This document shows positions 8,253 through 61,171 of a DNA stretch of 64,000 bases, piece by piece. Position numbers and translations under genes: made by a program. This DNA comes from Bdellovibrionales bacterium (GTDB lineage Bacteria > Bdellovibrionota > Bdellovibrionia > Bdellovibrionales > UBA1609): positions 1,227,388-1,291,387 of the forward strand of contig OZ251471.1 in NCBI GenBank assembly GCA_965242635.1. Direction: 5' to 3'. The notes beneath the pieces are model-generated. The model saw nothing but the letters and a program-made list of their open reading frames with translations. It did not search any database and was not told the origin of the DNA. Positions within the stretch are counted from its first letter, which is position 1; every line of letters starts with the position of its first letter.

Positions 8253-8266
8253 GTTTCACCTGAATA

Positions 8267-9712
8267 TTATAAAAAGCTTTTGTAATTTTTTATGGTGAAA
8301 GGCTCAAAGTCCTTTAACTGGGACTGGACCTGTTTCGCATTGGTCAGGATGAGAGTTTGTATTTGATCTGTTTTCAGATGTTTTTTTATGGCCTTGTTTA
8401 CCTCCTCCAAAGTGAGACCTTCCAGTTTTTTAAAAAACTGATCAACATAAGTGTAAGGAATCCCCTGGCTGTTGAGGTAAAGCAAATACCCTGCAAAACT
8501 GTCGACAGTGGACACCTCTGTAATAAAGCTGTTTTTTAAAAGTTGTTTGGCTTTTTTCAGTTCCTCCCCTGTAATGCCGTTTTTGTGAAAATCCTCTATT
8601 ACACCCATCATTTCCAACAAGCCCGTCCCCAACTTGTTGTTTCTGACGGCCATGCCGGCTTTAAAGGCCCCCAATTCTTTTTTGGCAGAAAAAACAGAAT
8701 ATACATGGTAGGTCAGGCCCTGTTGTTCCCGAATGCGGGTGGATAGCCTTGAACTGGAAGAGTGGCCCAAAATCACATTGCCCGACATGAGGGCCAAAAA
8801 GTCCGGGTGCGATCTTTTGACAGATATATGCCCCATTCTGATCTCTGACTGAATGGCAGAAGGCTGATCCACAATCAACAGGTTCTTTTTTGCCGACTTG
8901 ATTTTAAGCACCTTTGGCTGTTTTGTCTGATCTTTTACATCCGTTCCGGCTTTCCACTGACCAAAGAGGCTCTCCAATTGAGCGACAATATCTTCCGGGT
9001 GTCGCCCAGCCACAGTCATAACAGCATTCTGAGGATGAAGACGACTCTCGTAAAATTTTTTGATGTCCTCAAGCTTGAGAGTGGCCAGACTTTTCAGACT
9101 CCCGTTCACATAAAAGCCATAAGGGTGCGGTTCATACAGGTACTGGTTAAAAACGCGGTTGGCATAAAAAGAAAAGCTCTCCGGGCTTCTTCTGGCCCAG
9201 CCGAGGGCTTTCTCCTTTGCTCTTTGAAATTCCTCCTCAGAAAAAGCCGGTGTTTGGATAATTTCAGAAAAAATTTTCAACAGGTCCTTGTGCAGATAAG
9301 GAAGAGTGCCAATGGAGAAAGCCAGACCGTCACGGGTCAGATTATAGGCAAACCCAGCCCCCAACACTTCCAGGTCCTCTGTCACTTTTGTGGCTGAACG
9401 GTTTTTTGTGCCCTTGTCCATAAGCTCCGCCAGCAGGTAAGTCAGGCCCTCCTTCCCTTGCGGATCCGGCCCGGTTTTAAACAAAATGTCAAAAGTCAGG
9501 GAAGGCAAAGCCTCTTCCTTTATCAGCAAAACCTCCATCCCATTGGAAAGGCGGTGCTGGGTGTAAGAATAAGGTTTATAATGAACAGACCTGCACATAA
9601 TCTCTCTCCCATAAGCCACATACAAACAGGTGACCACAACCACAGCCAAAAGACAGAAAAATACCCAAAAGGGGGCCCTTCGCAAAAGATAAGGCATGCT
9701 TTTATGTCCCAT
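8267..9712 (-). CDS. M16-family peptidase-like protein (no obvious HxxEH motif; probably the non-catalytic partner)
   Basis: It has an N-terminal TM/signal segment and M16 N+C domain-like organisation. It is adjacent to the HxxEH-bearing paralogue. Confidence 0.8.
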   Translation of the reverse strand: MGHKSMPYLLRRAPFWVFFCLLAVVVVTCLYVAYGREIMCRSVHYKPYSYTQHRLSNGMEVLLIKEEALPSLTFDILFKTGPDPQGKEGLTYLLAELMDKGTKNRSATKVTEDLEVLGAGFAYNLTRDGLAFSIGTLPYLHKDLLKIFSEIIQTPAFSEEEFQRAKEKALGWARRSPESFSFYANRVFNQYLYEPHPYGFYVNGSLKSLATLKLEDIKKFYESRLHPQNAVMTVAGRHPEDIVAQLESLFGQWKAGTDVKDQTKQPKVLKIKSAKKNLLIVDQPSAIQSEIRMGHISVKRSHPDFLALMSGNVILGHSSSSRLSTRIREQQGLTYHVYSVFSAKKELGAFKAGMAVRNNKLGTGLLEMMGVIEDFHKNGITGEELKKAKQLLKNSFITEVSTVDSFAGYLLYLNSQGIPYTYVDQFFKKLEGLTLEEVNKAIKKHLKTDQIQTLILTNAKQVQSQLKDFEPFTIKNYKSFL

Positions 9713-9796: not shown

Positions 9797-11434
9797 TCAT
9801 AATATTTTTTCCGGCACAAGCTGAACCACAGACACTTTTTTGTCATTTAAGTAAAGTCGGGCGTTTTCCCGAATACTCTCCGCTGTCACATTTTCATACT
9901 CGCTCAGAGAATGAAACAACTGCCGGTGATCGCCAAAATAAGCTGTGTAATGGGAAAGGGAGTTGGCTTTTCCGGAAAGCGATTTAACTGCAGAAACATA
10001 ATCATTCATAATCATTCGGGCACTTTTAAGCCTTTCTTTTTCACTGATGTCCGAAGTCCTGGCTTTTTGTATCTCCGCCATAATCAGTTTTTGAGCTTTG
10101 TTCAAATCCCCTGTGGGAGTCATTTTCACCACCACCAAAAAGATACCTTCGTCTTTCATATCATAGTAAAAACCGCCAACAGACAGAGCCAGCTTGTGCC
10201 GGTATACCAAGAGCTTGTGCAAACGGCTGGATTCCCCACGGGTCAAAACCTGATTCAGCACATCCAAAGGGTAATATTTTTTGTCACCGGCCTTGGGGCC
10301 TCTGTAAGCCAGAACAAGAGTGGGGGCATGAATGGCCCTTTTTATTCGAATGTTTCGGGGTTGGGTTTGTGCCGACACTTTATGAGTAACAGCGGGAGGA
10401 AGTTCTGAAGGCTTTAAGGCACCGTAGTATTTCTGAATCCACTTTTTGGCTTTTTTGGAATCAAAGTGCCCGGCCAAAGTGAGAATGGCGTTATTGGGGG
10501 CATAATGGGTCTGGTAAAACTTTTGACAGTCGGTCAGTGTCATGGTCTCCAGATCTTTCATCCACCCAATAATAGGCCTTCCATAAGGGTGGGAGGGAAA
10601 AATCAGTTTCATCAGAGGTTCCAAAAACTCGTTGGGGTTGTTGTCGGTTCTCATTCTTCGCTCTTCTTTTACCACTTCTATTTCCTTGTTCAGGTTTTTT
10701 TGGTTCAGCTGAAGACTGTTCAGCCGTTCCGCCTCCATCTTCAGCACGGTTTTTAATTCATGGCTGGGAAGCAGAACATGGTAGGCTGTCAGGTCCCGGT
10801 TGGTCCAGGCATTGTTTCTGGCCCCCATGGATTCCAGTTTTTCTTCATACTCCTCCCCGGTGTATTTTTTGGTGCCTCTGAACATCATGTGTTCAAACAA
10901 ATGGGCCAGTCCGGTTTTGCCCTCCACTTCATCTTTGGAGCCGGTTTTGATCATGAGCTGATGATACACCTGAGGCACACGAGGATCCTCATGCAACAAA
11001 ACAGTCAGCCCGTTTTTAAGAGAATACTTTTCCACTTCCAAGTGGATAAGACCCTGTTCTTTTGAATTGGTTTGGGCTGTTACATCAGTGGTTTTGTCTG
11101 CTTGTATTTGTTTCATCCCGGTTTGGTCCTTTTGTGTCCCCTCTTGTGCGGGCTGGTTTGTTGTATCTGTCCCACTTTCCGCCACACTTTCAGGGCCTGA
11201 TCCTGAGCTTTTTTTTTCTGTCAGGGGGGAGGAAAAAGCCCTTATACTGATCGTGTTTGAAAATTCATGGTTCAAATTTCCCGGACAGGAGGGAAAAACC
11301 TCACAAGCGACACCTTTTTCAAAAGGCAGACCCCTCGGGGCAGGTTCTGCCTGCCCCGTGCCAGTTTGGTTTAAAGAAAACACAAGTGACCCTGTGTAGA
11401 CAAGCCAACTCACAGTCCATAAAAAAAAAGGCAT
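9797..11434 (-). CDS. M16-family zinc peptidase (pitrilysin-like)
   Basis: HLFEHMMFRGTKKY is the HxxEH zinc motif. I chose the start at MPFFLWTVSW (signal-like). The track ORF extends to 11530 but overlaps the upstream lipoprotein gene. The N-terminal region reads through interspersed element copy A. Confidence 0.85.
   Translation of the reverse strand: MPFFLWTVSWLVYTGSLVFSLNQTGTGQAEPAPRGLPFEKGVACEVFPSCPGNLNHEFSNTISIRAFSSPLTEKKSSGSGPESVAESGTDTTNQPAQEGTQKDQTGMKQIQADKTTDVTAQTNSKEQGLIHLEVEKYSLKNGLTVLLHEDPRVPQVYHQLMIKTGSKDEVEGKTGLAHLFEHMMFRGTKKYTGEEYEEKLESMGARNNAWTNRDLTAYHVLLPSHELKTVLKMEAERLNSLQLNQKNLNKEIEVVKEERRMRTDNNPNEFLEPLMKLIFPSHPYGRPIIGWMKDLETMTLTDCQKFYQTHYAPNNAILTLAGHFDSKKAKKWIQKYYGALKPSELPPAVTHKVSAQTQPRNIRIKRAIHAPTLVLAYRGPKAGDKKYYPLDVLNQVLTRGESSRLHKLLVYRHKLALSVGGFYYDMKDEGIFLVVVKMTPTGDLNKAQKLIMAEIQKARTSDISEKERLKSARMIMNDYVSAVKSLSGKANSLSHYTAYFGDHRQLFHSLSEYENVTAESIRENARLYLNDKKVSVVQLVPEKIL
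11241..11376 (-). repeat. Interspersed modular element, copy A (full length, in frame in the 5' part of the M16 peptidase ORF)
   Basis: The gene-sense strand reads TTAAACCAAACTGGCACGGGGCAGGCAGAACCTGCCCCGAGGGGTCTGCC TTTTGAAAAAGGTG...GAAATTTGAACCATGAATTTTCAAACACGATCAGTATAAG. The hairpin module is near-identical to copy B. Confidence 0.85.
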
Positions 11435-11447
11435 GATACAAGTGCTC

Positions 11448-12191
11448 TTATTGGGTTTTTGGTTCTTCGGGGTTGGGGTTAGAGGCAGGGTTGGGATCAG
11501 GTTCAGAGGCAGGGTTGGAGTTAGAGGCAAGGTTGGGATCAGGATCAGAGGCAGGGTCGGGATCAGAGGCAGGGTCGGCTGGAGGAGTTATTTTTTCATA
11601 AGGCCCCTGAGCCTCCACCAATTCCAGGGCCTCCGGAGAACAGGGGGAAACAGGATATACAGCAGGCGTCAACAGGCCCCCTATGCCACTGATATTGTAA
11701 TGGGCCGGTTGTGTGAGAGCCACCTCCAAAGAGCGAACCTCCTCGCATTTGGCTGACTTGCAAACGCCCACCGCCACAGGAAAAGCACTGGCCGGCACCT
11801 CCACACATCCTTCACTGACCTGCATGTCTATAATGAAGTGGGTTAAGGTCACAGGGCCGTATTTCGTGGGTGGAATAATATAGCCTTCCCCTGTTTTCAG
11901 GCTTTGCAGGTAAAGGGAAGCCCCTGACACTTCAGTTCCATCATACTCCTGAAAATCATTGGTAAAAGTGTAAAAAGATTCTTCTGCCGGCATTATGTCG
12001 CCTGTGGCTGGATCGGCAGGAGGATCCTGGGTGGAATCCTGTCTGGAAACATGGGGCTGGGATTCACATGCCAGCAGAAAAATAAAGATATATCCCAAGT
12101 AAAAGGCCTTGGCCTTTATTTTGTGGTTGAGGCCAAGTGCTTTTAAAGCCCCTTTGAGGAGCATACTTATGTGATTTGTCATAATTTCCAT
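11448..12191 (-). CDS. Putative lipoprotein with a C-terminal Asp/Asn-Pro low-complexity tail
   Basis: ...YIFIFLLACESQ carries a lipobox (LLAC). The tail is DPASDPDPASDPDPNLASNSNPASEPDPNPASNPNPEEP. The start is uncertain (M at 12191 or 12182; the track ORF extends to 12254). Confidence 0.6.
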   Translation of the reverse strand: MEIMTNHISMLLKGALKALGLNHKIKAKAFYLGYIFIFLLACESQPHVSRQDSTQDPPADPATGDIMPAEESFYTFTNDFQEYDGTEVSGASLYLQSLKTGEGYIIPPTKYGPVTLTHFIIDMQVSEGCVEVPASAFPVAVGVCKSAKCEEVRSLEVALTQPAHYNISGIGGLLTPAVYPVSPCSPEALELVEAQGPYEKITPPADPASDPDPASDPDPNLASNSNPASEPDPNPASNPNPEEPKTQ

Positions 12192-12461
12192 CCTTTCTTT
12201 AGAGATCCGTGGCTGAAATAAAAAAACTTCATTTGTTGACAATAAACCAGTCAAAGATGAAAAACAAGCTTTATTTCACCCAAAAGGCATGGTATCCTCC
12301 AAAATCACCGAATCAGGGCCTGCCAAGCCGGATTTTATCAAACTTTAGTCCTGATTCAGGCGGATTTTGACTTTCAGAGTGTAAAAAGTGAGCAAAAACC
12401 AGGCTTTTGCCTGATTTGGCTATCGTAACTTTCAGGGGTTTTTTATAAAAAATCAAGGGTT

Positions 12462-16614: not shown

Positions 16615-16677
16615 CTGGACCAGGCCATGTGCTGGACCAAGCCATGTGCTGGACCAAGCCATGTGCTGGACCAGGCC
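16615..16677. repeat. 17-bp tandem repeat (about 3.6 copies)
   Basis: CTGGACCA(G/A)GCCATGTG is reiterated head to tail in the batA-ftsH intergenic region. Confidence 0.9.
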
Positions 16678-18914: not shown

Positions 18915-18988
18915 GGTGGCGTGGCCGAGTGGTCAGGCGACGGACTGCAAATCCGTTTACGTCGGTTCAATTCCGGCCGCCACCTCCA
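18915..18988 (+). tRNA. tRNA-Cys (GCA)
   Basis: A manual cloverleaf fits: acceptor GGTGGCG/CGCCACC, anticodon arm ACGGA-CTGCAAA-TCCGT, T arm GTCGG-TTCAATT-CCGGC, discriminator T, and an encoded CCA. Confidence 0.9.
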
Positions 18989-19160
18989 TTATGGTAAAGA
19001 GTTACAATCAGAGGGAGGGTCGCGGCGAAAAGTAACCCGCTTTGCGGGCGGTTCAATTCCGGCCGCCACCTCCATTATGGTAAAGAGTTACAATCAGAGG
19101 GAGGGTCGCGGCGAAAAGTAACCCGCTTTGCGGGCGGTTCAATTCCGGCCACCACCTCCA
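18964..19160 (+). repeat. 86-bp tandem repeat that reiterates the 3' 25 nt of tRNA-Cys (3 copies of the tRNA end, 2 spacers)
   Basis: GGTTCAATTCCGGCCGCCACCTCCA occurs at 18964, 19050 and 19136 (the third copy has one G>A change). The copies are separated by identical 61-nt spacers containing the hairpin ACCCGCTTTGCGGG. Confidence 0.9.
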
Positions 19161-19179
19161 TATAACGAGAAGGCATATA

Positions 19180-21277: not shown

Positions 21278-22447
21278 ATGCACCTTTTACTGGACAAAAG
21301 CCGGGTTTATCTGGATTACAATGCCACCACCCCTCCTGCTGAGTTTTTGAGCCATCGTCTTCCGGAGTGGCTGACTTTGTGGGGAAACCCCAGCTCTGTG
21401 CACCAGAATGGACAAAAGGCCCGCTCTTTATATTGGGAGGGCAAGGCCCGGCTGGCTCAGTTCCTGGCCTGTCATCCTGGACAGCTGACCGCCACCAGCG
21501 GGGGCAGTGAAGCCAATAATATGGCCATCAAGGGCCTTTATGACAAATATTTCCCAAAAACCCCAAAGAGAACCGAAATTATCCTCTCCGCCGTGGAGCA
21601 CCCCAGCGTCCACACCCCCTTAAAGACCTTGAAGGCAAAAGGCATGCATCTTAAATATATCCCTGTGTCTCTGAAAGGGGAGTTGGATCTGTCTTTTTAT
21701 GAATCCGCTTTGAGCGAAAAAACTTTTATGGTGTGTGTGATGTATGCCAACAATGAGACGGGGAATATTTTTCCCATAGCCCGTATGGCCCACAAGGCCC
21801 GAAAGGCCGGGGCCTTTTTTCACTGTGATGCTGTGCAGGCTTTGGGCAAAGTTCGCTTTAATTTGCATCAGTTGGAGGTGGATACGGCCAGTTTTTCGGC
21901 ACATAAGTTTTATGGGCTTAAGGGCACAGGGGCTTTGTATTGCCGAAAGGGTCTCCTGCCGGCCTCTCTGATTGAGGGCGGGCCACAAGAAAGAAGGTGC
22001 CGGGCGGGCACAGAGAATGTCCTTGGCATGGCCTCCTTTGGTGCCGTGGCGGAAAAAGGGCCGGAGATTTTGGATATTTTTCGAAGTTTAAACCAATTAA
22101 GAGATGACATGGAAAAACAGGTTTTATCGGCTGTGCCGGGGGCCAGGGTTTTGGGGCAGGAGGGAAAAAGGCTCAACAACACCTCCTGTATTTGCGTGCC
22201 GGGGGTGGAGGGGGAGACTCTTTTAATGAACATGGACTTAAAGGGCTATTCTTTCAGTGTCGGCTCGGCCTGCCATTCGGGAAGCCTTAACCCCAGCTCA
22301 GTTTTAATGGCTATGGGCCTGAGTGAGAGGGAGGCCCGCTCCTCTTTTCGCATCAGCCTGGGCATAGGCACCACAAAAGAGGACATGGATTCTTTTGTGC
22401 CGGACCTTTTGTCTGCCATAAAGCGGGTTCAGTCTCTTGCTCCTTAA
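21278..22447 (+). CDS. Cysteine desulfurase (NifS/IscS class V aminotransferase)
   Basis: SFSAHKFYGLKGTGALY contains the PLP lysine. SVGSACHSG contains the active-site Cys. Confidence 0.9.
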   Translation: MHLLLDKSRVYLDYNATTPPAEFLSHRLPEWLTLWGNPSSVHQNGQKARSLYWEGKARLAQFLACHPGQLTATSGGSEANNMAIKGLYDKYFPKTPKRTEIILSAVEHPSVHTPLKTLKAKGMHLKYIPVSLKGELDLSFYESALSEKTFMVCVMYANNETGNIFPIARMAHKARKAGAFFHCDAVQALGKVRFNLHQLEVDTASFSAHKFYGLKGTGALYCRKGLLPASLIEGGPQERRCRAGTENVLGMASFGAVAEKGPEILDIFRSLNQLRDDMEKQVLSAVPGARVLGQEGKRLNNTSCICVPGVEGETLLMNMDLKGYSFSVGSACHSGSLNPSSVLMAMGLSEREARSSFRISLGIGTTKEDMDSFVPDLLSAIKRVQSLAP

Positions 22448-23510: not shown

Positions 23511-24976
23511 AGGCTTTAAGACTGTTGCCAATGATGTTTTTTTTGTTGTCGCCGGTGCTTTTCCATGAGCCGGCTCAAGCTGGATTTGTCAAAAAGAAAA
23601 CCAGACCAAAGGTAAAGCCGGAAACCTGGCGGGTCCCTTCCCCTCCCATAAAAACACCCTCCCAATCACCCATCGTGGCCTCCACCAATCCCTATCAGCA
23701 GTGCCGGGCCACTGTTATGCCCTCCTTTATCAGCCATTCCATGGGTATGGATGAAACCGGTTACCGTTCTTTCAAAGCTCTCTCCCCGCCTTCCATTTTG
23801 GTCCATGCGGCCGGTAACTCTCATCCTCAGCCATTATCCTCAGCCGAAAATAAAGCCAGCCGGGATTATAATGCCATTATTGTGGGCTCCATGTCTCCTG
23901 AAGGGGTGCGGAGCAGTTTTTCACAGGAAGGGGAGGCCGTCACCATCATGGCCCCTTCTGATCATTATCTCACTTCTGCCACCTCCACAGGGCATTATCG
24001 AAAATATAGTGGCACAAGTGGAGCCACCCCTTTGGTGACAGGCAGTCTGGCCGGTTTTGAGTGGATGGCCGGCTACCATCCCACAGCGGAGGAGGCCAAA
24101 ACTTTATTGGAAAAAACAGCCATCCCCACCCCTTATTCCAAAGACAAGCCCCGAAAAAATGGAGCGGGCATGGTCAACGCCTACAAACTGGCTATGGTGG
24201 GAAAACAGTTAAAACAAGCTTGTGGAAAAAACATATCCTGCTTTAAGGACCTGATAAAAAAAGACGACATTTATCAATTTCCTGAAGACGAGGCTGTGAT
24301 TGAGGCTTTGGACAAGGCTTTCCCTTATTGTTCCTCCACCTGCACAGCAGAGGAATTGAAAACCGAATCTTCATGTGCGGATAAAGCCCAGGCCTTTAAA
24401 GATTTAAGGAAACAGGCTTTCTTAAACCCTCAGAACAAAGCCCTTTGGAAAAAGATGGCCTGTGTGTATGCTCAAGGGGGTTTTGGCAAAAACACAGCTT
24501 TTGCTCTAAACATTTACAACACTCTTTCCGGCCGTCCCAACAGAGATCCTATTGGGTCCAGTGGCGGTTATCTGGCCGATATTTATTGTCAAAAAGATGA
24601 GGACTGTGCTTTGGCGACACCTTGCTCTGAAAAACCCGGCTCCAGATTACAAATCATGAGCAGGAGCTTTGTTGAACGCCATTATCTCCAATGTTTGGAG
24701 CAAAACAGGAAATACCCTCTTTGCAACGGCAAATGCCGGTGCGGTTCTCAGGAAAGTATAACAGAACCCCTGTCTTCTCCTGCCAAACCAGGTTCTGAGG
24801 ATGAAAAGAGAAAAAGAAGGGTTCAAAGTACTACCACATACAGTGTGGCCTGTATAAATTTCCAATGTATTAAGGGTATGAAAGTAGAAATAAGCGACAT
24901 GCCTGCTGAGCCTCCGGCCCCTAAACAGAAGGCGGAACCACCGGCCAATCCTACTGGCGGAGGGGCTGTGCGATAG
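23504..24976 (+). CDS. Secreted protein carrying the C-terminal (Asn, Ser) part of a subtilase S8 domain plus a Cys-rich extension
   Basis: It has its own signal peptide (MKALRLLPMMFFLLSPVLFHEPAQAG). The S8 motifs are ISHSMGMD (INMSLGG-like), ILVHAAGNS (oxyanion Asn) and SGTSGATPLVTGSLAG (catalytic Ser). It ends ...PPANPTGGGAVR. Confidence 0.65.
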   Translation, partial: AMKALRLLPMMFFLLSPVLFHEPAQAGFVKKKTRPKVKPETWRVPSPPIKTPSQSPIVASTNPYQQCRATVMPSFISHSMGMDETGYRSFKALSPPSILVHAAGNSHPQPLSSAENKASRDYNAIIVGSMSPEGVRSSFSQEGEAVTIMAPSDHYLTSATSTGHYRKYSGTSGATPLVTGSLAGFEWMAGYHPTAEEAKTLLEKTAIPTPYSKDKPRKNGAGMVNAYKLAMVGKQLKQACGKNISCFKDLIKKDDIYQFPEDEAVIEALDKAFPYCSSTCTAEELKTESSCADKAQAFKDLRKQAFLNPQNKALWKKMACVYAQGGFGKNTAFALNIYNTLSGRPNRDPIGSSGGYLADIYCQKDEDCALATPCSEKPGSRLQIMSRSFVERHYLQCLEQNRKYPLCNGKCRCGSQESITEPLSSPAKPGSEDEKRKRRVQSTTTYSVACINFQCIKGMKVEISDMPAEPPAPKQKAEPPANPTGGGAVR

Positions 24977-26792
24977 CCGGTCCCCGTCTCACCAGAATAA
25001 GCAGAAGGCAGACCCATAAAAACACCTGATTGATATAATAGCCATAAGAAACAAAAAATGCAGAAGGTTGATTGTCTTTTGAGTAAAGGGGTATCTCTTC
25101 CCACCCGCTTTGCACACCAAAGTCCTTAAAAACCAGTATATCCCCTTTGGCGGACACAATGGCAGAAGGCCCGGAGTTGGCCCCGCGAATCAAAGGCCGA
25201 CGCATCTCCACAGCCCGACTCAAAGTCATATAAGCCAGCTGATAAGGCTCCTGCCACCGGCCAAAGTAAGCGTCGTTGGCGACATTTACTATCAGATCCG
25301 CCCCTTCCCTCACCAAATCCCGCGTCACATGGTCAAAAAGGCCCTCATAACAGATATGAAAGCCCAGTCTCCATTGGCTTAGAGGGGCTGTTTTATATTT
25401 TCCAGTCCCTTTTTTAAAGATTTTGCTTTGCTCCCCAAAGAGCCATCTATCCATAAAGGGAAACCACCTGGCCCCCGGAGTGTATTCCCCTATGGGGGTC
25501 AAAAGCCCTTTGTCGTAAGGTGGCTGAACAAGCCCTCCCTCTTTATCAAAGACAAAAATGGAATTGGTGTATGTTTTTTCTGCTGGATCCGCTTTGTCTG
25601 TTTTAACAGGTTCAGGTGTTTTTATATGCCGGCCCCTGGCCGACACCACCAGGGCTGTGTCAAAAACCCGGACCCATTTTTGTATGAGGTCCTGTCCTCT
25701 TTCAGCGGCTTCAAGGTGGATGGGATAAGGGTAAGCCCCTTCCGGCCACAGAATAAAGTCCGGTTTAAGGGCCTGGCCCTCAGCCAAAGTGGATGTTTGA
25801 GCCTTTGAGGTTGAAGGGGGCGAGGAGACTTGAGGATAAAAGTGTTTTGAAGTTGCTTGCAGTAGTTTGGACATGACAAGCGGGCGGGATTCTTTGTCAT
25901 CCTGTTGATGATTTTCGATATTGGGTTGAATCATCAGAACATGAACTTTTTGATCCGTTTCCGGCAGGCGGTTTTTTAAATACCCCCCACAGCCATTCAA
26001 ACCCACCATTAACAAAAGCCAGCCAGCAAAGAGAACTATACTAATCCTGTTTGAAAATGCATGTTTCATATTTGCCTTGTGAGAGGGAAACAGCCCAAAA
26101 ACAGCACCCTTTTCAAAAGGCAGACCCCTCGGGGCAGGTTCTGCCTGCCCCGTGCCAGTTTGGTTTAAATAGTGGTGTCTAAAAAAGGGGCACTTCCTCA
26201 AAAACAAAGGTTTTTCACGAGCCATCCCCAAATAAAGCCACAGGAATATCAGATTGGAAAACAAAGTCAGAGTGTTTAAAAACCGAAAGCCCCATATTTC
26301 CGCTGTTTGTGCCATGGGCCATTTTGCGTAAAAGTACATATAGCCCAGGTGCCAGTCAAAAATCATGGGAACATATTCTGTGCTCAGGCCAAGCAGGACA
26401 GGCAATAAAAACAAAACAGACAAAGCACTGGCGAAGTCTTGTGTTCGGAGGGCTTTTCGGAAAAAAAACCACAATAAAAGAGAAAGAGGGATATGGAGAT
26501 TGGCCACAGAGCAAAAGACCAAAAAAAGAACAAGGGCCTGATAGAGGGGGAATTCCATTTCCATCAGTGTGCCCGGAAGATAACCAAATCCAATCAGAGT
26601 GAGCATGAACTGGCAAAGCCAGCTTCCTGTGATTAAAGGCCCCAACTTTTCTGTTTTAAGGGCAAACAGCCAAAGGGGCACATAACAAAAAAACAGGGCG
26701 TAAGGGGGAAAAGGGATATAGCTGGTCCCGATAAAAAAGCCGGAGAGCAAAGGCCAAAAAAAGGACTTTTGTGTTATACGGCGAAAAATCAT
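24951..26792 (-). CDS. lnt: Apolipoprotein N-acyltransferase
   Basis: A polytopic N-terminal region is followed by a CN-hydrolase domain with ILWPEGAYP and HICYEGLF motifs. It contains element copy B in frame. Confidence 0.85.
   Translation of the reverse strand: MIFRRITQKSFFWPLLSGFFIGTSYIPFPPYALFFCYVPLWLFALKTEKLGPLITGSWLCQFMLTLIGFGYLPGTLMEMEFPLYQALVLFLVFCSVANLHIPLSLLLWFFFRKALRTQDFASALSVLFLLPVLLGLSTEYVPMIFDWHLGYMYFYAKWPMAQTAEIWGFRFLNTLTLFSNLIFLWLYLGMAREKPLFLRKCPFFRHHYLNQTGTGQAEPAPRGLPFEKGAVFGLFPSHKANMKHAFSNRISIVLFAGWLLLMVGLNGCGGYLKNRLPETDQKVHVLMIQPNIENHQQDDKESRPLVMSKLLQATSKHFYPQVSSPPSTSKAQTSTLAEGQALKPDFILWPEGAYPYPIHLEAAERGQDLIQKWVRVFDTALVVSARGRHIKTPEPVKTDKADPAEKTYTNSIFVFDKEGGLVQPPYDKGLLTPIGEYTPGARWFPFMDRWLFGEQSKIFKKGTGKYKTAPLSQWRLGFHICYEGLFDHVTRDLVREGADLIVNVANDAYFGRWQEPYQLAYMTLSRAVEMRRPLIRGANSGPSAIVSAKGDILVFKDFGVQSGWEEIPLYSKDNQPSAFFVSYGYYINQVFLWVCLLLILVRRGPAIAQPLRQ
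26036..26169 (-). repeat. Interspersed modular element, copy B (full length, in frame inside lnt)
   Basis: The terminal and hairpin modules (about 26107-26169, ~60 bp) are nearly identical to copy A, and the remainder is diverged. It is translated as LNQTGTGQAEPAPRGLPFEKGAVFGLFPSHKANMKHAFSNRISI. Confidence 0.85.
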
Positions 26793-27629: not shown

Positions 27630-30600
27630 TTAATAAAGTTGAATTTTTTGCCGGCCCAATGTTTTTTGGATATTCTCCAAAAAGGAGGAGCTCAAAGTCA
27701 CCCCATGAAAAGTGCCTGATTTCAGGCACACGGTTTTGGCAGGGCTTTTTAATTTCACATTAAAATACAAAGGCACATTTCCGCTGTATTGGCTTAATAA
27801 CTCCTTAAGCTGAGCCATTTTGTCTTTTTCTGTCTCGTCCAGCTTTAAAATCAAACCACGGGAACGTCCGTTCAGCCGGCTCTCCACCCCTTCCACTTCC
27901 CGTGCCAAAAGCTTGCCATTTTTTTCCAAATCCCCTTTGATCACCAAAGGTTCACCCATCCGGCGAAGATTCTGCTCAAACTGGAGATACACATCCGCAA
28001 AAAAAACCACCTCCATGCCCCCGGTGCCATCCTCTATCCGTGTGAAAGCCATGGTGTGTCCTTTTCGTGTCCGAATCTCACGAAACTCACTGATGATGCC
28101 CCACACGCAGACCCCTGTTTTTTCCATATCACTTTTAAGGGAGGCTATGGGTGTACAGCCCCCCACCTTCATAAAAGACTGTAAGTGATCCATAGGGTGG
28201 CCACTCAGGTAAAAACCCATCACAGATTTTTCATAGTCCAAAAGTTGGGACCTCGACCACTCTACTTGTTTCTTATACATAAAGCCAGTGGATTTTTTTT
28301 GAGAACCAAAAAAGTTGATTTGCCCTGACTCCTTTTCCTCTTTCTTTTTTTCCACCTGCTCCACCAGAGCCTCGTAGTTGGTCAGTATTTCCTGCCGGTT
28401 CATTTCCATGCCGTCAAAGGCCCCGGCCTTGGTCAAGGCCTCCACACATTTTTTGTTTATTTTTTTTGTATCCACCGATTCAAAAAAGTGCTGAACAGAA
28501 GTAAATTTTCCAGAGGGCAGGGCTCGGCGGGTACGAACAATATGATCCGCCACCAAACGGCCCACCCCCTTAATGGCCCCCAGAGAAAAATAAATACGGC
28601 CCTTGACGGGGGCAAAAAAATACTCAGAGTGATTGATATGGGGGGGCATTATTTTGATACCATGTTTTTTGGTGTCCCTCATATAGGTCACCACTTTGTC
28701 TGTGTTGTTTCTTTCCACAGAAAGCAAAGAGGCAAAAAACTCCACCGGGTAATATCTCTTGAGCCAGGCTGTCTGGACCGCCAGCACACAATAAGCGGCG
28801 GCATGGGATTTGTTAAACCCATATTTTGCAAACTCAGCCACCAAATCAAACAGCTTTTCCGATTTTTTGGGATCGTATCCATTTTGAACCGCCCCTTCCA
28901 AAAAGCGGTTTTTTTGTTTTTTCATCACAGCTGTTTTTTTCTCCCCCATAGCCCGTCTTAAAACATCCGCCTCCCCATAGCTGTAGCCGGCTATTTTGGC
29001 CGCAATCAGCAAAACCTGCTCCTGATACACAATAATCCCGTAAGTTTCCCTTAAAACAGGCTCCATTTCATCAAACAAATACTCCACCCGGACCTTGCCT
29101 TTTTTTCTGTTCAGATAAGAGGGTATCATCTCCATGGGACCGGGCCTGAAAAGGGCATTGAGGGCCACGATGTCCTCAAAGCAGGAAGGTTCTGCTTTGA
29201 TAATCACATCCGTAATACCCTCCCCCTCAAACTGAAACACCCCTTTGGTGTCCCCTTTACGCATAATTTCATAAATGCCTTTGTCATTGAGGGAAATATC
29301 CCGGACAGAAAGTTTTTTGCCTTCGCTTCGTTCAATCATACGAAAGGCCGACTCTATTTGAGTGAGTGTTTTGAGACCCAGAAAATCAAATTTGACCAGG
29401 CCTATTTTTTTGGCATGATTTAAATCGCATTGGATCACATTCTCACCCTCTTTTCCGCGATAAAGGGGTGCGAAGTGAATAATGGGATGATCCGCTATAA
29501 TCACCCCGGCCGCGTGAATGCTCACATGGCGAATCAAACCTTCAATCCGGCGGGCCAGCTGAATCAGATTATCCACTTCAGGATCTGATTCCATCAGATC
29601 CTTTAAAGTTAAGTTCTCCTCCATGGCCTCTTTTAAAGTCACCTCCAGTCGATCCGGTATCAACCGGACCACCTGATCCACATCGGGGTAGCTCATGCCC
29701 AAAACACGGCCCACATCCCGCACTGCCGCACGAGCCTGAAGCCGTCCATAAGTCATCACCTGTGCCACATAATCCTTGCCGTATTTGGCACTCACATATT
29801 CAATGACACGATTTCTGTGTTCCTGACAAAAATCAATGTCAAAATCAGGGAGGGAGATTCTCTCCGGATTTAAAAACCTCTCAAACAACAGATTATACGG
29901 CATGGGATTCAGATCAGTGATCTTTAAGCACCAGGCCACAAGGGAGCTGGCCCCCGATCCCCGCCCCGGCCCAACAGGGATGTTTTCCTTTCTGGCCCAA
30001 TGAACAAAATCATGCACAATCAAAAAATAATCCGCAAAACCCATGTCATTTATGATTTTCAGCTCTTTATTCAGTCGCTCTTCGTATTTTTGCCTTAACT
30101 CCCCGATTTTATCCTGTTCAGAAAAGCCCTCTGCTTTGTCCTGCCAACGGTCTTCAAGCCCTTTAAAACTGAGGGCTTTTAATTGCTCCCTCGCACTTTT
30201 TCCCTCCTCTTTTATACTGATCTTGTTTGACTCCTGCCCCGAGGACTCTGCCTGTGCCCCAAAGCCAGTTTGGTTTAACTTGGGCAGATGATACAGAGGC
30301 CGGCCCCCTTTTTTCAGCTGAAAGTGCAGTTGACAGCGGGACACTATCTCCCCCACATTACTTAAAGCCTCCGGCTGGTCCTTAAAAAGCTCTCTCATTT
30401 CCTGAGAGCTTTTAAAATAAAACTGGTTTGATTTTAACTTAAACCGCTCCGGGTCCCGTATTGTTCTGTTGGCACCAATACAAAACAAAATATCCTGAAC
30501 AGTGGAATCCGCTTTATTCAGATAGTGCACATCGTTACCCACTGTGAGAGCTGTGCCTGTTGTTTGGCCAGTGGAGATCAAAAATTGATTAAACCTCTCC

Positions 30601-31199
30601 TCTCCCGGAAGACCCATCCGATTAAGTTGAAGGTAAAGCCGGTCCCCGTAAATGTTTTTTAGTTTTTTGATCAGATCCAAAGCCTGTTCCGGCCCTTTTT
30701 TAAAAAAAGTCCTGTTCAGCACACCATTAAGCCCTCCCGTTAAAGCGATAACAGATTTGCTGTATTTTTCAAGGGTGTTCCACTCCACTCTGGGCACATA
30801 ATAAAAACCTTTCTGACAGGCTATCGTATTGATATGGCAGAGGTTTCGGTAGCCTTTTATGTCCTGGGCCAAAAGGACTATGGAGGATGTTTCTGCATGA
30901 AAGGCATGGGCTGAAGAGTAATGCCTGTTCCCTGAGGAGGAGAGTAAATAAATCTCCAAGCCCAAAACAGGGTTAATGCCTTTTTCACGAGCTTTAAAAT
31001 AAAGATCAAAGACACCAAACATATTGCCGTAATCTGTAATGGCCACGGCAGGCTGTTTGTCCTCAAGGCATTTTTTCACCAAGCCGGACACAGTGCAGGA
31101 GGATTTTAAAAGGGAGTAATGGGTGTGCACATGCAGGTGCGAAAAAGGGGGCGATGCTTGAGACAAAGAGTTTTTTTTGGTGTTGGGATTTTTTGTCAT
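27630..31199 (-). CDS. dnaE: DNA polymerase III alpha subunit
   Basis: PHP N-terminus (FSHLHVHTHYSLL), polymerase core (GPGRGSGASSLVAWCLKITDLNP; LPDFDIDF), HhH and OB regions, 1189 aa. It contains element copy C in frame. Confidence 0.97.
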   Translation of the reverse strand: MTKNPNTKKNSLSQASPPFSHLHVHTHYSLLKSSCTVSGLVKKCLEDKQPAVAITDYGNMFGVFDLYFKAREKGINPVLGLEIYLLSSSGNRHYSSAHAFHAETSSIVLLAQDIKGYRNLCHINTIACQKGFYYVPRVEWNTLEKYSKSVIALTGGLNGVLNRTFFKKGPEQALDLIKKLKNIYGDRLYLQLNRMGLPGEERFNQFLISTGQTTGTALTVGNDVHYLNKADSTVQDILFCIGANRTIRDPERFKLKSNQFYFKSSQEMRELFKDQPEALSNVGEIVSRCQLHFQLKKGGRPLYHLPKLNQTGFGAQAESSGQESNKISIKEEGKSAREQLKALSFKGLEDRWQDKAEGFSEQDKIGELRQKYEERLNKELKIINDMGFADYFLIVHDFVHWARKENIPVGPGRGSGASSLVAWCLKITDLNPMPYNLLFERFLNPERISLPDFDIDFCQEHRNRVIEYVSAKYGKDYVAQVMTYGRLQARAAVRDVGRVLGMSYPDVDQVVRLIPDRLEVTLKEAMEENLTLKDLMESDPEVDNLIQLARRIEGLIRHVSIHAAGVIIADHPIIHFAPLYRGKEGENVIQCDLNHAKKIGLVKFDFLGLKTLTQIESAFRMIERSEGKKLSVRDISLNDKGIYEIMRKGDTKGVFQFEGEGITDVIIKAEPSCFEDIVALNALFRPGPMEMIPSYLNRKKGKVRVEYLFDEMEPVLRETYGIIVYQEQVLLIAAKIAGYSYGEADVLRRAMGEKKTAVMKKQKNRFLEGAVQNGYDPKKSEKLFDLVAEFAKYGFNKSHAAAYCVLAVQTAWLKRYYPVEFFASLLSVERNNTDKVVTYMRDTKKHGIKIMPPHINHSEYFFAPVKGRIYFSLGAIKGVGRLVADHIVRTRRALPSGKFTSVQHFFESVDTKKINKKCVEALTKAGAFDGMEMNRQEILTNYEALVEQVEKKKEEKESGQINFFGSQKKSTGFMYKKQVEWSRSQLLDYEKSVMGFYLSGHPMDHLQSFMKVGGCTPIASLKSDMEKTGVCVWGIISEFREIRTRKGHTMAFTRIEDGTGGMEVVFFADVYLQFEQNLRRMGEPLVIKGDLEKNGKLLAREVEGVESRLNGRSRGLILKLDETEKDKMAQLKELLSQYSGNVPLYFNVKLKSPAKTVCLKSGTFHGVTLSSSFLENIQKTLGRQKIQLY
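30211..30279 (-). repeat. Interspersed modular element, copy C (short form: both termini plus the hairpin module, in frame inside dnaE)
   Basis: The gene-sense strand reads GTTAAACCAAACTGGCTTTGGGGCACAGGCAGAGTCCTCGGGGCAGGAGTCAAACAAGATCAGTATAAA, translated as LNQTGFGAQAESSGQESNKISI. Confidence 0.8.
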
Positions 31200-34356: not shown

Positions 34357-34443
34357 TGGTGCCCCGGGGGAGACTTGAACTCCCACGACCTTTCGGCCAT
34401 ACGATTTTGAGTCGCACGCGTCTGCCAATTCCGCCACCGGGGC
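34357..34443 (-). tRNA. tRNA-Leu (CAA), type II with a long variable arm
   Basis: The reverse strand reads GCCCCGGTGGCGGAATTGGCAGACGCGTGCGACTCAAAATCGTATGGCCGAAAGGTCGTGGGAGTTCAAGTCTCCCCCGGGGCACCA. The anticodon loop is CTCAAAA. Confidence 0.9.
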
Positions 34444-34487: not shown

Positions 34488-34606
34488 CTATATTGATTGT
34501 GTTTGAAAATTCATGGCTCAAATTTCCTCGACAGGGCGAAAAAACCCCACCAGCGACACCTTTTTCAAAAGGCAGAACCTGCCCCCCCAAGCCAGTTTGG
34601 TTTAAA
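34488..34606 (-). repeat. Interspersed modular element, copy D (intergenic, upstream of tRNA-Leu; shortened hairpin module)
   Basis: It shares both termini and the core module with copies A, B and E. The LNQTG frame stays open (track ORF 34462-34650). Confidence 0.85.
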
Positions 34607-49073: not shown

Positions 49074-49149
49074 TGGAGCGGGAGACGGGCCTCGAACCCG
49101 CAACCCTCAGCTTGGAAGGCTGATACTCTGCCAGTTGAGCTACTCCCGC
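49074..49149 (-). tRNA. tRNA-Gly (UCC)
   Basis: The reverse strand reads GCGGGAGTAGCTCAACTGGCAGAGTATCAGCCTTCCAAGCTGAGGGTTGCGGGTTCGAGGCCCGTCTCCCGCTCCA. The anticodon loop is CTTCCAA. Confidence 0.9.
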
Positions 49150-51528: not shown

Positions 51529-51614
51529 TGGTGGAGAGGGTAGGATTCGAACCTACGTAGGCAAAAGCCAACGGGTTTACAGCCCGCCCCCTTTAACCAC
51601 TCGGGCACCTCTCC
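51529..51614 (-). tRNA. tRNA-Tyr (GUA), type II
   Basis: The reverse strand reads GGAGAGGTGCCCGAGTGGTTAAAGGGGGCGGGCTGTAAACCCGTTGGCTTTTGCCTACGTAGGTTCGAATCCTACCCTCTCCACCA. Confidence 0.9.
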
Positions 51615-51679
51615 TTAACTTTTTGACACACAAAGAAAATCCGCCGGGCCTGATCTTTACAAAACCCCCCAAAATAAAA

Positions 51680-58608: not shown

Positions 58609-59733
58609 ATGTGTTCCCGGCTTGATTTATTGATTCTTAAAATCCTGGACCGGACAGGCAAAAGCCTGTTTAAGCTTTTGTCCCGTATCCCGTCCTTATC
58701 AGCTTTGTCTGTGGCTCTTTCAGGCCCTTTTTTTTGGCTGTTGTCTTACGATTCTTTTGCCTCTCTTCCCAATGCTGTTTTGATTCGTGCACCCAACACA
58801 CCAGCGAAAGAGTTTTCCGCTTATGCGGAAACAGAGCCTGTCAAAACCTATATTCAACATCGATTGGACAAGATCAAAAAAACCCCACGACCCTTGAATC
58901 TGCGGTCTCTTTTGAAACAGGCTCAGATGGACTTTTTGTCTCATGAGCCGGCTCATTCCAAAAAAAGTTTTCAGGCCATTTTCGAGCATATCCATGCTTT
59001 TGACTGGAACGAGGAGGAGAGAAAAATTATTTTCTACAGCCTTTTTCGCTTGGCTCAGCTGGAAAAAGACCCAAAAAAGCAGACTCTTTTACTGAAGGAG
59101 GCTTTGGCTTTCAGCATGGATCTTAAAGTGGATAAAGGTCTTTTTCCCCCTCCTGTGACAAGTCGTTATGAGCAGATTAAAAAATCGGCTGATTATGTGT
59201 CCGTGAACTTAAAGAAAATTTTTCCACAGCATCCTGTGGTTATCCTCAATGGTCGTGTGTATTCCCATCAGGAAAGCCCTGTTTTGCCTTATGGCCTTTA
59301 CAGGGTCAATGCATTAAGTGCCTCCCATAAATCCTGGACCAAAGTGCTCTCCCTTTCCCGGTTGATGGTGACCAACCCCGGCAGGAAAGCCCTGGTGGGA
59401 GGTGATTGCCGTAACCCGACTCTCACAGACCAGGACTTAAAGGGTCAGAACCTGCTGATTTTGTTTCCCAACTTTTGTGTATGGAGTTCGGCTGTTCAGC
59501 TGGCCAAAGCACAAAAAAAAGAGCTTTTGCCTGTAAAGGTTCAGATGGCAGAGAATTTAAAAGAGCCTGAGGAGGACCAGGGGCATTGGGAGGAATGGCT
59601 GTGGCTGGGGGTGGCTGTGGTGGGAGGGGCCACTGCCCTTTGGGCCTTGACCCGGAACGGGCAAAAAGAACAACAGAGATCGCCAAACCCCCCGGAAGAA
59701 AATCCTGCCCCCACAGTCAAAATAGGTTTTTAA
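58609..59733 (+). CDS. Hypothetical protein with a C-terminal TM anchor
   Basis: A 374-codon ORF following the Tad-like genes, with the TM segment WLWLGVAVVGGATALWAL near the C-terminus. Confidence 0.45.
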   Translation: MCSRLDLLILKILDRTGKSLFKLLSRIPSLSALSVALSGPFFWLLSYDSFASLPNAVLIRAPNTPAKEFSAYAETEPVKTYIQHRLDKIKKTPRPLNLRSLLKQAQMDFLSHEPAHSKKSFQAIFEHIHAFDWNEEERKIIFYSLFRLAQLEKDPKKQTLLLKEALAFSMDLKVDKGLFPPPVTSRYEQIKKSADYVSVNLKKIFPQHPVVILNGRVYSHQESPVLPYGLYRVNALSASHKSWTKVLSLSRLMVTNPGRKALVGGDCRNPTLTDQDLKGQNLLILFPNFCVWSSAVQLAKAQKKELLPVKVQMAENLKEPEEDQGHWEEWLWLGVAVVGGATALWALTRNGQKEQQRSPNPPEENPAPTVKIGF

Positions 59734-59920
59734 GCCAAACTGGCTTTGAAAAAGGTGCCGCTTGTAGGGTTTTTTCCTCTTATCCGGAAAATTTGAATCA
59801 TGAATTTTCAAACAAGATCGGTATAAGCCAAACTGGCTTTGAAAAAGGTGCCGCTTGTAGGGTTTTTTCCTCTTATCCGGAAAATTTGAATCATGAATTT
59901 TTCAAACAAGATCGGTATAA
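59729..59920 (+). repeat. Interspersed modular element, copies E1+E2 (head-to-tail dimer, 93-bp period, lacking the hairpin module)
   Basis: TAAGCCAAACTGGCTTTGAAAAAGGTGCCGCTTGTAGGGTTTTTTCCTCTTATCCGGAAAATTTGAATCATGAATTTT(T)CAAACAAGATCGGTATAA occurs twice. The two units share the junction TAA. Confidence 0.9.
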
Positions 59921-61124: not shown

Positions 61125-61171
61125 CTAAACCAAACTGGCTTGGGAACAGGCAGGAAAGGGGCAGGATGCGT
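61125..61171 (+). repeat. Interspersed modular element, copy F (truncated: left terminus plus a partial hairpin module), flanked by 7-bp direct repeats
   Basis: CTAAACCAAACTGGCTTGGGAACAGGCAGGAAAGGGGCAGGATGCGT is flanked by ATTCAGG at 61118-61124 and 61172-61178. Confidence 0.6.

What the first reader, a model, noticed from the sequence alone, without database searches (positions are those of the whole stretch)
30211..30279. A 69-bp interspersed repeat is inserted in frame inside dnaE (RPE-like behaviour)
Seen directly: 30211-30279 carries both termini (gene-sense TTAAACCAAACTGGC... and ...CAAACAAGATCAGTATAA) and the GC-rich hairpin module of an element. Longer versions of that element lie at 11241-11376, 26036-26169, 34488-34606 and 59729-59920. 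In dnaE it is translated as ...LPK-LNQTGFGAQAESSGQESNKISI-KEEGKSAREQLKALSFKGLEDRW without breaking the 1189-codon frame. The insertion lies after the PHP domain, where E. coli DnaE (from memory: ...[27 protein letters not shown]) has only a short linker. All three genic copies (dnaE, lnt, M16 peptidase) share one orientation and one reading frame (LNQTG...). The intergenic copies keep that frame open too. Established knowledge: Rickettsia palindromic elements are the classic case of repeats that colonise ORFs in frame. Inference: an analogous, apparently modular family (terminus / hairpin / core / terminus) operates in this unrelated genome, and essential proteins tolerate it.
Basis: partly seen in the sequence, partly recalled or inferred. 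Interest (0 to 1): 0.72.

Follow-up and report, generated by a model that had tools for sequence, protein, structure and literature searches.

The report
In-frame mobile repeat inside dnaE
A 61-bp remnant of a small mobile DNA repeat recently jumped into the gene for the main replication polymerase of an uncultured Bdellovibrio-like bacterium, where it is read through as 21 extra amino acids in a floppy surface loop. Relatives of this repeat sit in frame in many other housekeeping genes of the same bacterial group, as is known from Rickettsia.

Summary
dnaE (27630-31199, minus strand, 1189 codons) carries an exact 63-nt (21-codon) insertion, N309-I329. It consists of a 61-nt element body (30215-30275) plus one copy of a TA target.

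The closest relative (DnaE 89% identical) has the clean empty site CCC AAA TTA AAA GAA. The element is an internally deleted member of a repeat family with six other copies or remnants in the window. Relatives of the family occur in at least three other genomes of the clade.

A profile of the encoded peptide finds it inside about 20 unrelated proteins, including Obg, PMM, PrmC, a TPP enzyme, a helicase and a Cas12a-like protein. It is always preceded by L, I or V (xTA codons), which fits TA targeting.

The insert lies in the PHP-palm linker, predicted coil with pLDDT below 50.

New finding: the same TA of dnaE is occupied in two other lineages by old, decayed copies. The window copy has intact termini and is younger than the split from its sister. 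That makes at least three independent hits.

Corrections: the insert is 63 bp, not 69. Its "hairpin" is degenerate. Terminal inverted repeats are weak. The 3n lengths and open frames are not intrinsic to the family. The transposase is unknown.

Verdict: an RPE-like or MITE-like case in a new lineage.

The parts
27630..31199 (-). dnaE (DNA polymerase III alpha), 1189 codons, host gene
   Evidence: ORF list and translation. Pfam domains PHP, DNA_pol3_alpha, finger, HHH_6 and OB. About 8000 homologues found.
30213..30277 (+). Element E in dnaE. TA (30213-30214), then a 61-nt body (30215-30275), then TA (30276-30277). Net insertion is 63 nt, encoding N309-I329 on the minus strand. The element's left-to-right orientation is on the plus strand.
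   Evidence: Empty site in L118 is CCC AAA TTA AAA GAA. The filled site is CCC AAG TTA [AAC...AGT ATA] AAA GAG. Termini match the family consensus 18/18 and 15/15. TA-to-TA distance is 63.
11243..11373 (+). Copy A, 129 nt TA-to-TA, full version with core and a 9-bp GC hairpin. It lies in frame near the N-terminus of the M16 peptidase gene model (9797-11434, minus strand).
   Evidence: The 545-aa gene model that includes the element is on record. The true start codon is not verified.
26037..26167 (+). Copy B, 129 nt, in frame inside lnt (24951-26792, minus strand), in a variable loop between transmembrane segments.
   Evidence: TIGR00546 lnt scores 179.9 bits against a cut-off of 132.9. Orthologue P0162 of the sister genome lacks the peptide.
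34489..34604 (+). Copy C, 114 nt, intergenic, next to tRNA-Leu (34357-34443). It has a shortened hairpin module. Annotators call a 62-aa ORF on it (P0121).
59731..59919 (-). Copies D1 (94 nt) and D2 (93 nt), a head-to-tail pair sharing one TA (59824-59825). This is the basic version without the hairpin module. It sits between convergent genes. The stop codon TAA of ORF 58609-59733 is formed at the element end.
   Evidence: (D8).
61126..61163 (-). Solo remnant of the right terminus plus hairpin-module debris.
   Evidence: nhmmer E = 0.05.

Best explanation
The segment is a short, internally deleted copy of a non-autonomous transposable repeat (MITE-like, roughly 55-130 bp, or longer where the minisatellite has expanded).

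How it inserts. The element inserts at TA dinucleotides in T-rich/A-rich context, and is flanked by TA on both sides.

Why the frame stays open. When the TA occupies positions 2-3 of an xTA codon (Leu, Ile or Val), and the element enters with its right end first relative to the gene, that codon is preserved. The element is read in its one hydrophilic, stop-free frame (N-Q-T-G ... S-N-K-I-S-I). The final ATA (Ile) is completed by the second TA, and the host frame resumes.

What happened in dnaE. A 61-nt derivative landed this way in the TTA codon of L308, after this lineage split from its closest sequenced relative. It added 21 Gly/Ser/Gln/Glu-rich residues to the disordered linker between the PHP and palm domains.

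Why it persists. It is translated, costs little there, and purifying selection removes insertions that break frame or fold. The same filter, probably with a target preference, explains why the identical TA has been hit independently in at least two other lineages.

Shown: the insertion, its boundaries, family membership, the empty site, its recency, recurrence at the site, and in-frame copies in many proteins.
Inferred: transposition by a trans-acting transposase (most likely a DDE enzyme that duplicates TA), that the peptide is retained in the protein, and that it is neutral.
For: - Insertion and boundaries: filled versus empty site.
- Recency: the insert's 33 terminal nucleotides all match the family consensus. 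Four-fold degenerate sites of dnaE differ by 36% from the sister genome L118. That implies about 0.25 substitutions per site per lineage, so an insert older than the split would keep 33/33 with probability about 3e-4.
- TA flanks on every complete copy, and one TA shared in the tandem pair. Flanks are T-rich on the left and A-rich on the right.
- The residue before NQTG in 20-plus host proteins is L, I or V.
- The LNQTG frame is open in all six window copies, while four of the six frames carry stops.
- Family-wide in-frame copies occur in PGM/PMM (two copies), Obg, PrmC, the UPF0004 domain, a TPP enzyme, HisKA, a C5-methylase, a ResIII helicase, a VCA0040-like membrane protein and a Cas12a-like protein.
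- DNA-level copies with the same termini occur in other genomes.
- Location: a linker not aligned to E. coli alpha residues 276-295. The AlphaFold model shows coil at 289-335 with pLDDT below 50 at 310-331.
- No terminator-like site or stable fold in the dnaE copy. No Rfam family at or above its gathering score anywhere in the window apart from five tRNA genes.
- Recurrence: the same TA is occupied in L119/L120 (insert starts AACCGCACTGG / AACCGACCGGG) and in L121/L122 (ends SNQPNP / QQSSI). These copies are decayed and carry internal duplications. The tree gives (P0001,P0002), (P0003,P0004) and (P0008,P0015) each 100% bootstrap.
Against: - Terminal inverted repeats are poor. Only an 8-bp perfect subterminal pair, TTTGAAAA/TTTTCAAA, was found. 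By my own manual alignment the outer 11 nt match about 6/11. The dnaE copy has lost the inner pair.
- No partner transposase was found. The IS5-like elements seen in relatives have unrelated ends.
- A true TA duplication cannot be distinguished from insertion next to a TA without duplication.
- The host genome beyond the 64-kb window could not be retrieved. Copy number and orientation or frame bias are therefore not measured genome-wide.
- Most extra genic copies were found through a search with the LNQTG-frame peptide, which is an ascertainment bias.
- No transcript or protein data exist.
- The start codon of the M16 gene is unverified.
Confidence: 0.8

Rival explanations
1. One ancient insertion into dnaE in the common ancestor of the clade, inherited by the window genome and by P0003/P0004 (and perhaps P0008/P0015). 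It was then removed precisely in P0002 and in most other lineages.
For: All occupied sites use the same TA, orientation and frame. The inserts in the window and in L122 are both short forms, 63 and 60 nt. The four genomes P0001-P0004 form one 100% clade.
Against: The window copy matches the present-day family consensus at 33/33 terminal positions. The L121/L122 copies are heavily decayed, with shared derived changes (N to Y). Neutral divergence is 36% to the sister genome and 55-60% to L121/L122. This scenario needs many independent exact deletions that restore TTA AAA.
Confidence: 0.1
2. The element is mobilised by a single-strand HUH/Y1 transposase (IS200/IS605- or RAYT-type). It would insert 3' of a (T)TA target without duplication and use subterminal hairpins rather than terminal inverted repeats.
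For: True TIRs are weak. There is a strong GC hairpin 12-15 nt from the right end in copies A and B, and a small hairpin at the right tip. A 121-aa Y1_Tnp gene lies in a relative's locus, L119 23372-23737. Four of five window loci have the same element orientation.
Against: The 93-nt basic copies lack the GC hairpin yet are multi-copy and occur in tandem. There is no left-end hairpin. The flanks look symmetric (T-rich, TA, A-rich), as expected for a dimeric DDE enzyme. No family copy was detected in L119, the only fetched locus that carries a Y1 gene.
Confidence: 0.2
3. The extra 21 residues are a functional, selected linker extension of DnaE, or a domesticated peptide module, rather than a tolerated passenger.
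For: The same loop has been lengthened repeatedly and the old inserts are retained and even expanded: 20-88 extra residues in P0003, P0004, P0008 and P0015. The peptide motif is recognisable across many proteins.
Against: The sister genome and most clade members do without it. The old inserts evolve fast and by internal duplication, as unconstrained low-complexity sequence does. The segment is predicted disordered. The peptide matches no Pfam or NCBIfam model.
Confidence: 0.07

Closest known systems
Rickettsia palindromic elements (RPE-1 to RPE-10; Ogata et al. 2000 and 2002, as summarised in PMC10969869)
   Same: A short multi-copy repeat with one stop-free frame, inserted in frame into many unrelated housekeeping genes. 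It encodes a conserved peptide placed in positions compatible with the fold. Copies are both genic and intergenic. The hosts have small (about 2 Mb) genomes.
   Different: The host phylum is unrelated (Bdellovibrionota-like). No NCBIfam or Pfam model of any kind matches the peptide. Whether those libraries hold RPE domain models is only my recollection. The elements here are shorter (55-129 bp against about 100-150 bp). They have clear TA flanks and an L/I/V-NQTG junction rule. A variable or minisatellite region lies next to one end. The same dnaE codon has been hit repeatedly.
TA-duplicating bacterial MITEs, such as Neisseria Correia elements, cyanobacterial Nezha and other IS630/Tc1-derived MITEs (from my own knowledge; reviews PMC2229807, PMC3184786, PMC10969869)
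   Same: Size, copy number and TA on both flanks. Tandem copies share one TA. Internally deleted derivatives keep both ends. Occasional in-frame genic copies occur.
   Different: Those families have clear terminal inverted repeats of 20 bp or more and usually a known parent IS. Here only an 8-bp subterminal inverted pair is perfect, and no parent element was found.
Coxiella burnetii QMITE1 and QMITE2 (PMC5896051)
   Same: MITEs of an intracellular bacterium that overlap ORFs, supply stop codons or C-terminal extensions, and sometimes lie in frame in the middle of ORFs. Here, copy D supplies the TAA of ORF 58609-59733.
   Different: QMITEs are 150-400 bp with direct repeats of variable sequence. 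Their mid-ORF in-frame cases are mostly in hypothetical proteins, not in essential enzymes such as DnaE or Obg.
Porphyromonas gingivalis MITE containing a minisatellite (PMC4596501)
   Same: A MITE whose interior holds a variable-copy short tandem repeat. Here, 15-nt CGGTTTGCGACCCGT units sit next to the right end (L121 around 21350-21450, six full units plus the copy that runs into the right end), read as RKPT-type peptides in P0150.
   Different: A different sequence family. The minisatellite variant was seen only in relatives, not in the window.

Membership tests
[quoted passage not shown] | Small (under about 500 bp), lacks a transposase gene, multi-copy and interspersed | tested here: met
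   TA-to-TA lengths are 55-129 bp. There are 6 copies plus 1 remnant in 64 kb, and further copies in other genomes.
[quoted passage not shown] | Target-site duplication flanking each copy | tested here: inconclusive
   TA is present on both sides of every complete copy. The empty site has a single TA. However, a TA belonging to the element itself cannot be excluded.
[quoted passage not shown] | Terminal inverted repeats | tested here: inconclusive
   Only an 8-bp perfect subterminal pair, TTTGAAAA/TTTTCAAA, was found. By manual alignment the outer 11 nt match about 6/11. The dnaE copy has lost the inner pair.
[quoted passage not shown] | A related autonomous IS with the same ends in the genome | not testable with these tools
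   The host genome was not retrievable. IS5-like elements in relatives have unrelated ends.
Rickettsia palindromic elements (RPE) | Sequence or peptide homology to an RPE family | tested here: not met
   The element peptides hit no NCBIfam or Pfam model at E up to 10. That NCBIfam contains the TIGRFAM RPE domain models is from my memory.
Rickettsia palindromic elements (RPE) | In-frame insertion into many unrelated protein-coding genes with a conserved encoded peptide | tested here: met
   There are 33 profile hits, of which about 20 are internal to proteins of different Pfam families. In the window these are dnaE, lnt and M16.
Rickettsia palindromic elements (RPE) | Insertion at surface or loop positions compatible with the fold | tested here: met
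   Tested for DnaE only. The insert lies between E. coli alpha residues 275 and 296, in predicted coil with pLDDT below 50. In Lnt it lies in a length-variable loop.
IS200/IS605-derived elements (PATE) and REP/RAYT systems | Subterminal hairpins at both ends, specific 4-5-nt target on the left flank, no duplication, Y1 transposase in the genome | tested here: inconclusive
   A right-end GC hairpin is present only in some copies, and there is no left hairpin. The left flank is YTA. A Y1_Tnp gene was seen only in a relative's locus that carried no copy of the family.
Intein, self-splicing intron or translational bypass insert | Removal of the segment from the protein or RNA (splicing motifs, ribozyme structure) | tested here: not met
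   The segment is only 63 nt. No Rfam family reaches its gathering score anywhere in the window except five tRNA genes. No stable fold is predicted. The frame is open and there are no intein motifs in the 21 residues. Experimental retention was not tested.

The most novel reading that the evidence does not exclude
A previously undescribed RPE-like repeat family in an uncultured Bdellovibrionota-like clade has a built-in junction rule: a TA in an xTA codon yields L/I/V-NQTG...SNKISI. It has struck the very same codon of the essential replicase gene dnaE at least three separate times. The old inserts were retained and expanded. This would make the PHP-palm linker of DnaE a natural, recurrent landing pad, and the family a tractable system for studying how mobile DNA creates protein length variation. 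At the extreme, the peptide or the linker extension may be selected.
Probability: 0.3. Interest if true: 0.7.

Novelty: new member of a known kind. Interest (0 to 1): 0.5.

Why it matters
In-frame colonisation of essential genes by selfish repeats is textbook for Rickettsia but rarely documented elsewhere. This is a clean case in a different phylum, and it has three useful properties.

- An exact empty site in a sister genome.
- A simple mechanistic rule that explains how the frame is preserved: a TA within an xTA codon, plus one stop-free hydrophilic frame.
- Parallel hits at one codon of dnaE in three lineages of different ages. Together these give a natural time series, from a pristine 21-residue insert to decayed and internally duplicated inserts of 20-88 residues.

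The case is useful for studying how proteins acquire loops. It also bears on annotation: several intergenic copies are currently called as 46-72-aa "genes". And it can help in finding the unknown transposase.

Tried and rejected
None had a left terminus within 300 nt.
- The look-up of encoding contigs has no record of the host genome. A whole-genome census was therefore impossible.
- The search for homologous proteins with the peptide profile returned only five short ORFs. It missed Lnt and M16, although both are in the collection. I treated that result as a lower bound and replaced it with the exhaustive HMMER scan.
- The metagenome scan with a 22-base gapped core pattern gave four chance hits and no element.
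- I first thought P0003/P0004 (LYRLDT / LYQIDP) carried the element in the opposite orientation. The DNA shows the same orientation with point changes, AAC to TAC and so on.
- I first thought all copies were multiples of 3. D1 is 94 nt, and intergenic copies in relatives are 109 and 55 nt. I dropped the idea.
- Candidate parent elements were rejected. The IS5-like elements in L122 and L128 have unrelated TIRs. A solo perfect left terminus at L122:4032 is followed by unrelated sequence and a 972-aa ORF with no Pfam hit.
- An attempt to define the IS5-like insertion in cas3 by comparing L128 with L129 failed, because the two sequences have diverged.
- An RNA-structure role for the dnaE copy was rejected.
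Full report
**Observation**

The minus-strand ORF 27630-31199 is an uninterrupted 1189-codon dnaE. Pfam assigns it PHP, DNA_pol3_alpha, finger, HHH_6 and OB domains. It contains ...YHLPK-L-NQTGFGAQAESSGQESNKISI-KEEGKS....

The two terminal motifs are strongly over-represented in the window. The right end matches 7 times against 0.91 expected, and the left end 6 times against 0.04 expected. They bound longer copies at 11243-11373 (A), 26037-26167 (B), 34489-34604 (C) and a head-to-tail pair at 59731-59919 (D1, D2). A right-end remnant lies at 61126-61163.

**Exact boundaries and the empty site**

A protein search placed the organism among uncultured Bdellovibrionales/Oligoflexia-labelled genomes of about 1.3-2.3 Mb. 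The closest DnaE (P0002, 89% identical) lacks the peptide.

Its DNA (L118) reads CAT CTA CCC AAA TTA AAA GAA GAG. The window reads CAT CTG CCC AAG TTA [AAC CAA ACT GGC ... ATC AGT ATA] AAA GAG GAG.

The insertion is therefore exactly 63 nt, or 21 codons (N309-I329). It is a 61-nt body (30215-30275) with TA on both sides (30213-14 and 30276-77). The 69-bp span of the finding includes host codons L308 and K330.

**What the element is**

Every complete copy in the window and in relatives is flanked by TA, usually in a T-rich/TA/A-rich context. The tandem pair shares a single TA.

The basic version (D, 93 nt) has an 8-bp perfect subterminal inverted pair, TTTGAAAA/TTTTCAAA. By my own manual alignment its outer ends are only weakly complementary.

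Copies A and B carry an extra 36-nt GC-rich segment with a perfect 9-bp stem, between the inner repeat and the right tip. Copy C has a shortened version.

In a related genome the same position holds 15-nt tandem units, six full ones in a row at L121 around 21350-21450.

The dnaE copy keeps both tips. It lacks the 66-nt core and retains only a degenerate piece of the GC segment. Its peptide GAQAESSGQ resembles GQAESSRQ in copy P0124. Its predicted fold is no better than shuffles, and it contains no terminator-like site.

I therefore read it as an internally deleted, non-autonomous transposable element of MITE type. The TIR criterion is only weakly met, and the transposase is unidentified. IS5-like elements in relatives have unrelated ends. 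A Y1 transposase gene in one relative's locus, which carried no copy of the family, keeps an HUH mechanism open as a rival.

**How the frame is preserved**

Of the six frames, only LNQTG...SNKISI is open in all six window copies. The opposite-strand frame, ILIVFEN...PVWFK, is open in some copies. The others carry stops.

In dnaE the TA is at positions 2-3 of TTA (L308). The element then begins AAC CAA ACT GG and ends ...AGT A, which the second TA completes to ATA (Ile).

This predicts that the residue before NQTG must come from an xTA codon. In the 20-plus proteins found with the peptide it is L, I or V (KLNQTG, KINQTG, QVNQTG, and so on).

Genic copies necessarily add multiples of 3: 129, 129 and 63 nt here, and 93, 126, 111 and 93 nt in relatives. 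Intergenic copies do not follow this rule: 114, 93, 94, 93, 109 and 55 nt. In a related genome the intergenic copies carry stops in the LNQTG frame. Openness and 3n length are therefore outcomes of selection on genic copies, not intrinsic design.

**Family-wide behaviour**

An exhaustive HMMER scan of 1.84 billion representative proteins with the peptide profile gave 33 hits. About 20 of them are internal to longer proteins of unrelated families:

- PGM/PMM (two copies)
- Obg
- PrmC
- the UPF0004 domain
- a TPP enzyme
- HisKA (three copies)
- a C5 DNA methylase
- a ResIII helicase
- a VCA0040-like membrane protein
- a 1406-aa protein next to Cas12a, Cas4 and Cas1

DNA of three of these loci shows bona fide elements with the same termini and TA flanks. 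The loci come from at least three other assemblies.

In the window, Lnt (TIGR00546 above cut-off) and the M16 peptidase carry full copies in the same frame. Both gene models that include the element are the ones on record. The Lnt orthologue of the sister genome lacks the peptide, and the site is a length-variable loop.

The M16 start codon remains unverified. In more distant relatives a decayed copy lies just upstream of, or overlapping, the start of the orthologous gene.

The peptide matches no Pfam or NCBIfam model. This is RPE-like behaviour, not RPE membership.

**Position in DnaE**

The insert falls between segments that align to E. coli alpha residues up to 275 and from 296 on, which is the PHP-to-palm linker. 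An AlphaFold2 model (mean pLDDT 70.8) shows coil from 289 to 335, with pLDDT below 50 at 310-331.

**Recurrent use of the same site (new)**

The same TA is occupied in four other DnaE genes.

- L119 and L120 (P0008 and P0015) begin TTA AACCGCACTGGATTTGAAG and TTA AACCGACCGGGGTTTGAG.
- L122 (P0004) begins TTA TACCAAATTGAC and ends AGT AGT ATC AAA. L121 (P0003) ends S-N-Q-P-N-P.

All are in the same orientation. All are decayed, and three are expanded by internal duplications.

A neighbour-joining tree gives (P0001,P0002), (P0003,P0004) and (P0008,P0015), each at 100% bootstrap. The first two pairs are also joined at 100%.

Four-fold degenerate sites of dnaE differ by 36% between the window and L118, and by 55-60% from L121/L122. 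The window insert matches the family consensus at all 33 terminal positions. It is therefore much younger than the split from P0002 (probability about 3e-4 otherwise).

The most economical history is three independent gains: P0001, the P0003/4 ancestor, and the P0008/15 ancestor. The alternative, one ancient gain with many exact losses, I rate at about 0.1. Few sites in an essential enzyme tolerate 20 or more extra residues. AAATTAAAAG is also an ideal T/A-rich TA target. Selection and target preference together can explain the coincidence.

**Comparison with known systems**

In-frame MITE insertions are documented for Rickettsia RPEs (44 insertions in R. conorii genes), for Coxiella QMITEs, and for ERIC, BOX and Anabaena MITEs (PMC10969869, PMC5896051, PMC2229807, PMC3184786). 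A MITE with an internal minisatellite is known in P. gingivalis (PMC4596501).

I found no description for this clade. The finding is therefore a new member of a known kind. The useful extras are an exact empty site, a simple junction rule and parallel hits at one dnaE codon.

**Limits**

One collection scan was wasted on too short a pattern. Copy number and orientation or frame bias are therefore not measured genome-wide. Most extra genic copies were found with a frame-specific probe, which biases the sample. Retention of the segment in mRNA and protein is inferred only from the open frame.

Noticed in passing
window 18963-19161 (next to tRNA-Cys 18915-18988): The last 26 nt or so of tRNA-Cys, plus about 60 nt downstream, are repeated head to tail. 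There are two full 86-nt units and the start of a third. This looks like stacked attachment-site scars of integrative elements.
   Followed up: no
window 49161-49456 (next to tRNA-Gly 49074-49149) and 50916-51457 (next to tRNA-Tyr/Thr 51529-51755): A 136-nt tandem repeat at 99-100% identity (two units plus the start of a third). Separately, interleaved 111-nt and 81-nt repeat families lie beside tRNA genes. Neither is related to the dnaE element.
   Followed up: no
window 52054-52149, 16615-16677 and 11470-11577: Short-period tandem repeats. One is a 12-nt repeat (CAAACAACCCCG / CAAACCGACCAG). One is a 17-nt repeat (CTGGACCAGGCCATGTG). One has an 18/24-nt period inside ORF 11448-12254 and encodes a Pro/Thr/Leu-rich repeat.
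   Followed up: no
L130 980-9351: A related contig carries a Cas12a (Cpf1) gene, followed directly by a second 1406-aa gene with no Pfam hit, then Cas4 and Cas1. The second gene carries a 93-nt element copy in frame (8242-8337).
   Followed up: partly
L128 17610-21215 compared with L129 15491-18139: cas3 is intact (882 aa) in one assembly. In a related one it is split by an IS5-family element (DDE_Tnp_1, TIR GGCTTTGTTGCACTTAAGG). The same IS end also occurs at L122 around 3900.
   Followed up: partly
L121 around 21350-21450: Six full tandem copies of the 15-nt unit CGGTTTGCGACCCGT run directly into a right terminus of the element family. This is a minisatellite variant. It is translated as RKPT-type repeats in proteins such as P0150.
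   Followed up: partly
DnaE orthologues P0016 and P0037, residues just before the conserved YExRLE motif: P0016 reads ...CQDLESNKISINQEERQRY. This contains the element's terminal peptide SNKISI at a second variable spot of the same linker. It could be another old insertion or a coincidence. The DNA was not fetched.
   Followed up: no
window 34489-34604 and proteins P0121-P0125: Intergenic copies of the repeat are annotated in public records as 46-72-aa proteins. These are almost certainly spurious gene calls.
   Followed up: partly
L119 1876-3116: Phosphoglycerate kinase is called as two adjacent ORFs (237 and 171 aa) in one relative. This may be a frameshift, a pseudogene or another small insertion.
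   Followed up: no
window 58609-59733 and L121 2423-3367: In two cases the TAA stop codon of a gene coincides with the TA plus A at the right end of an element copy. Insertion at a stop codon in this orientation regenerates TAA and leaves the protein unchanged.
   Followed up: partly
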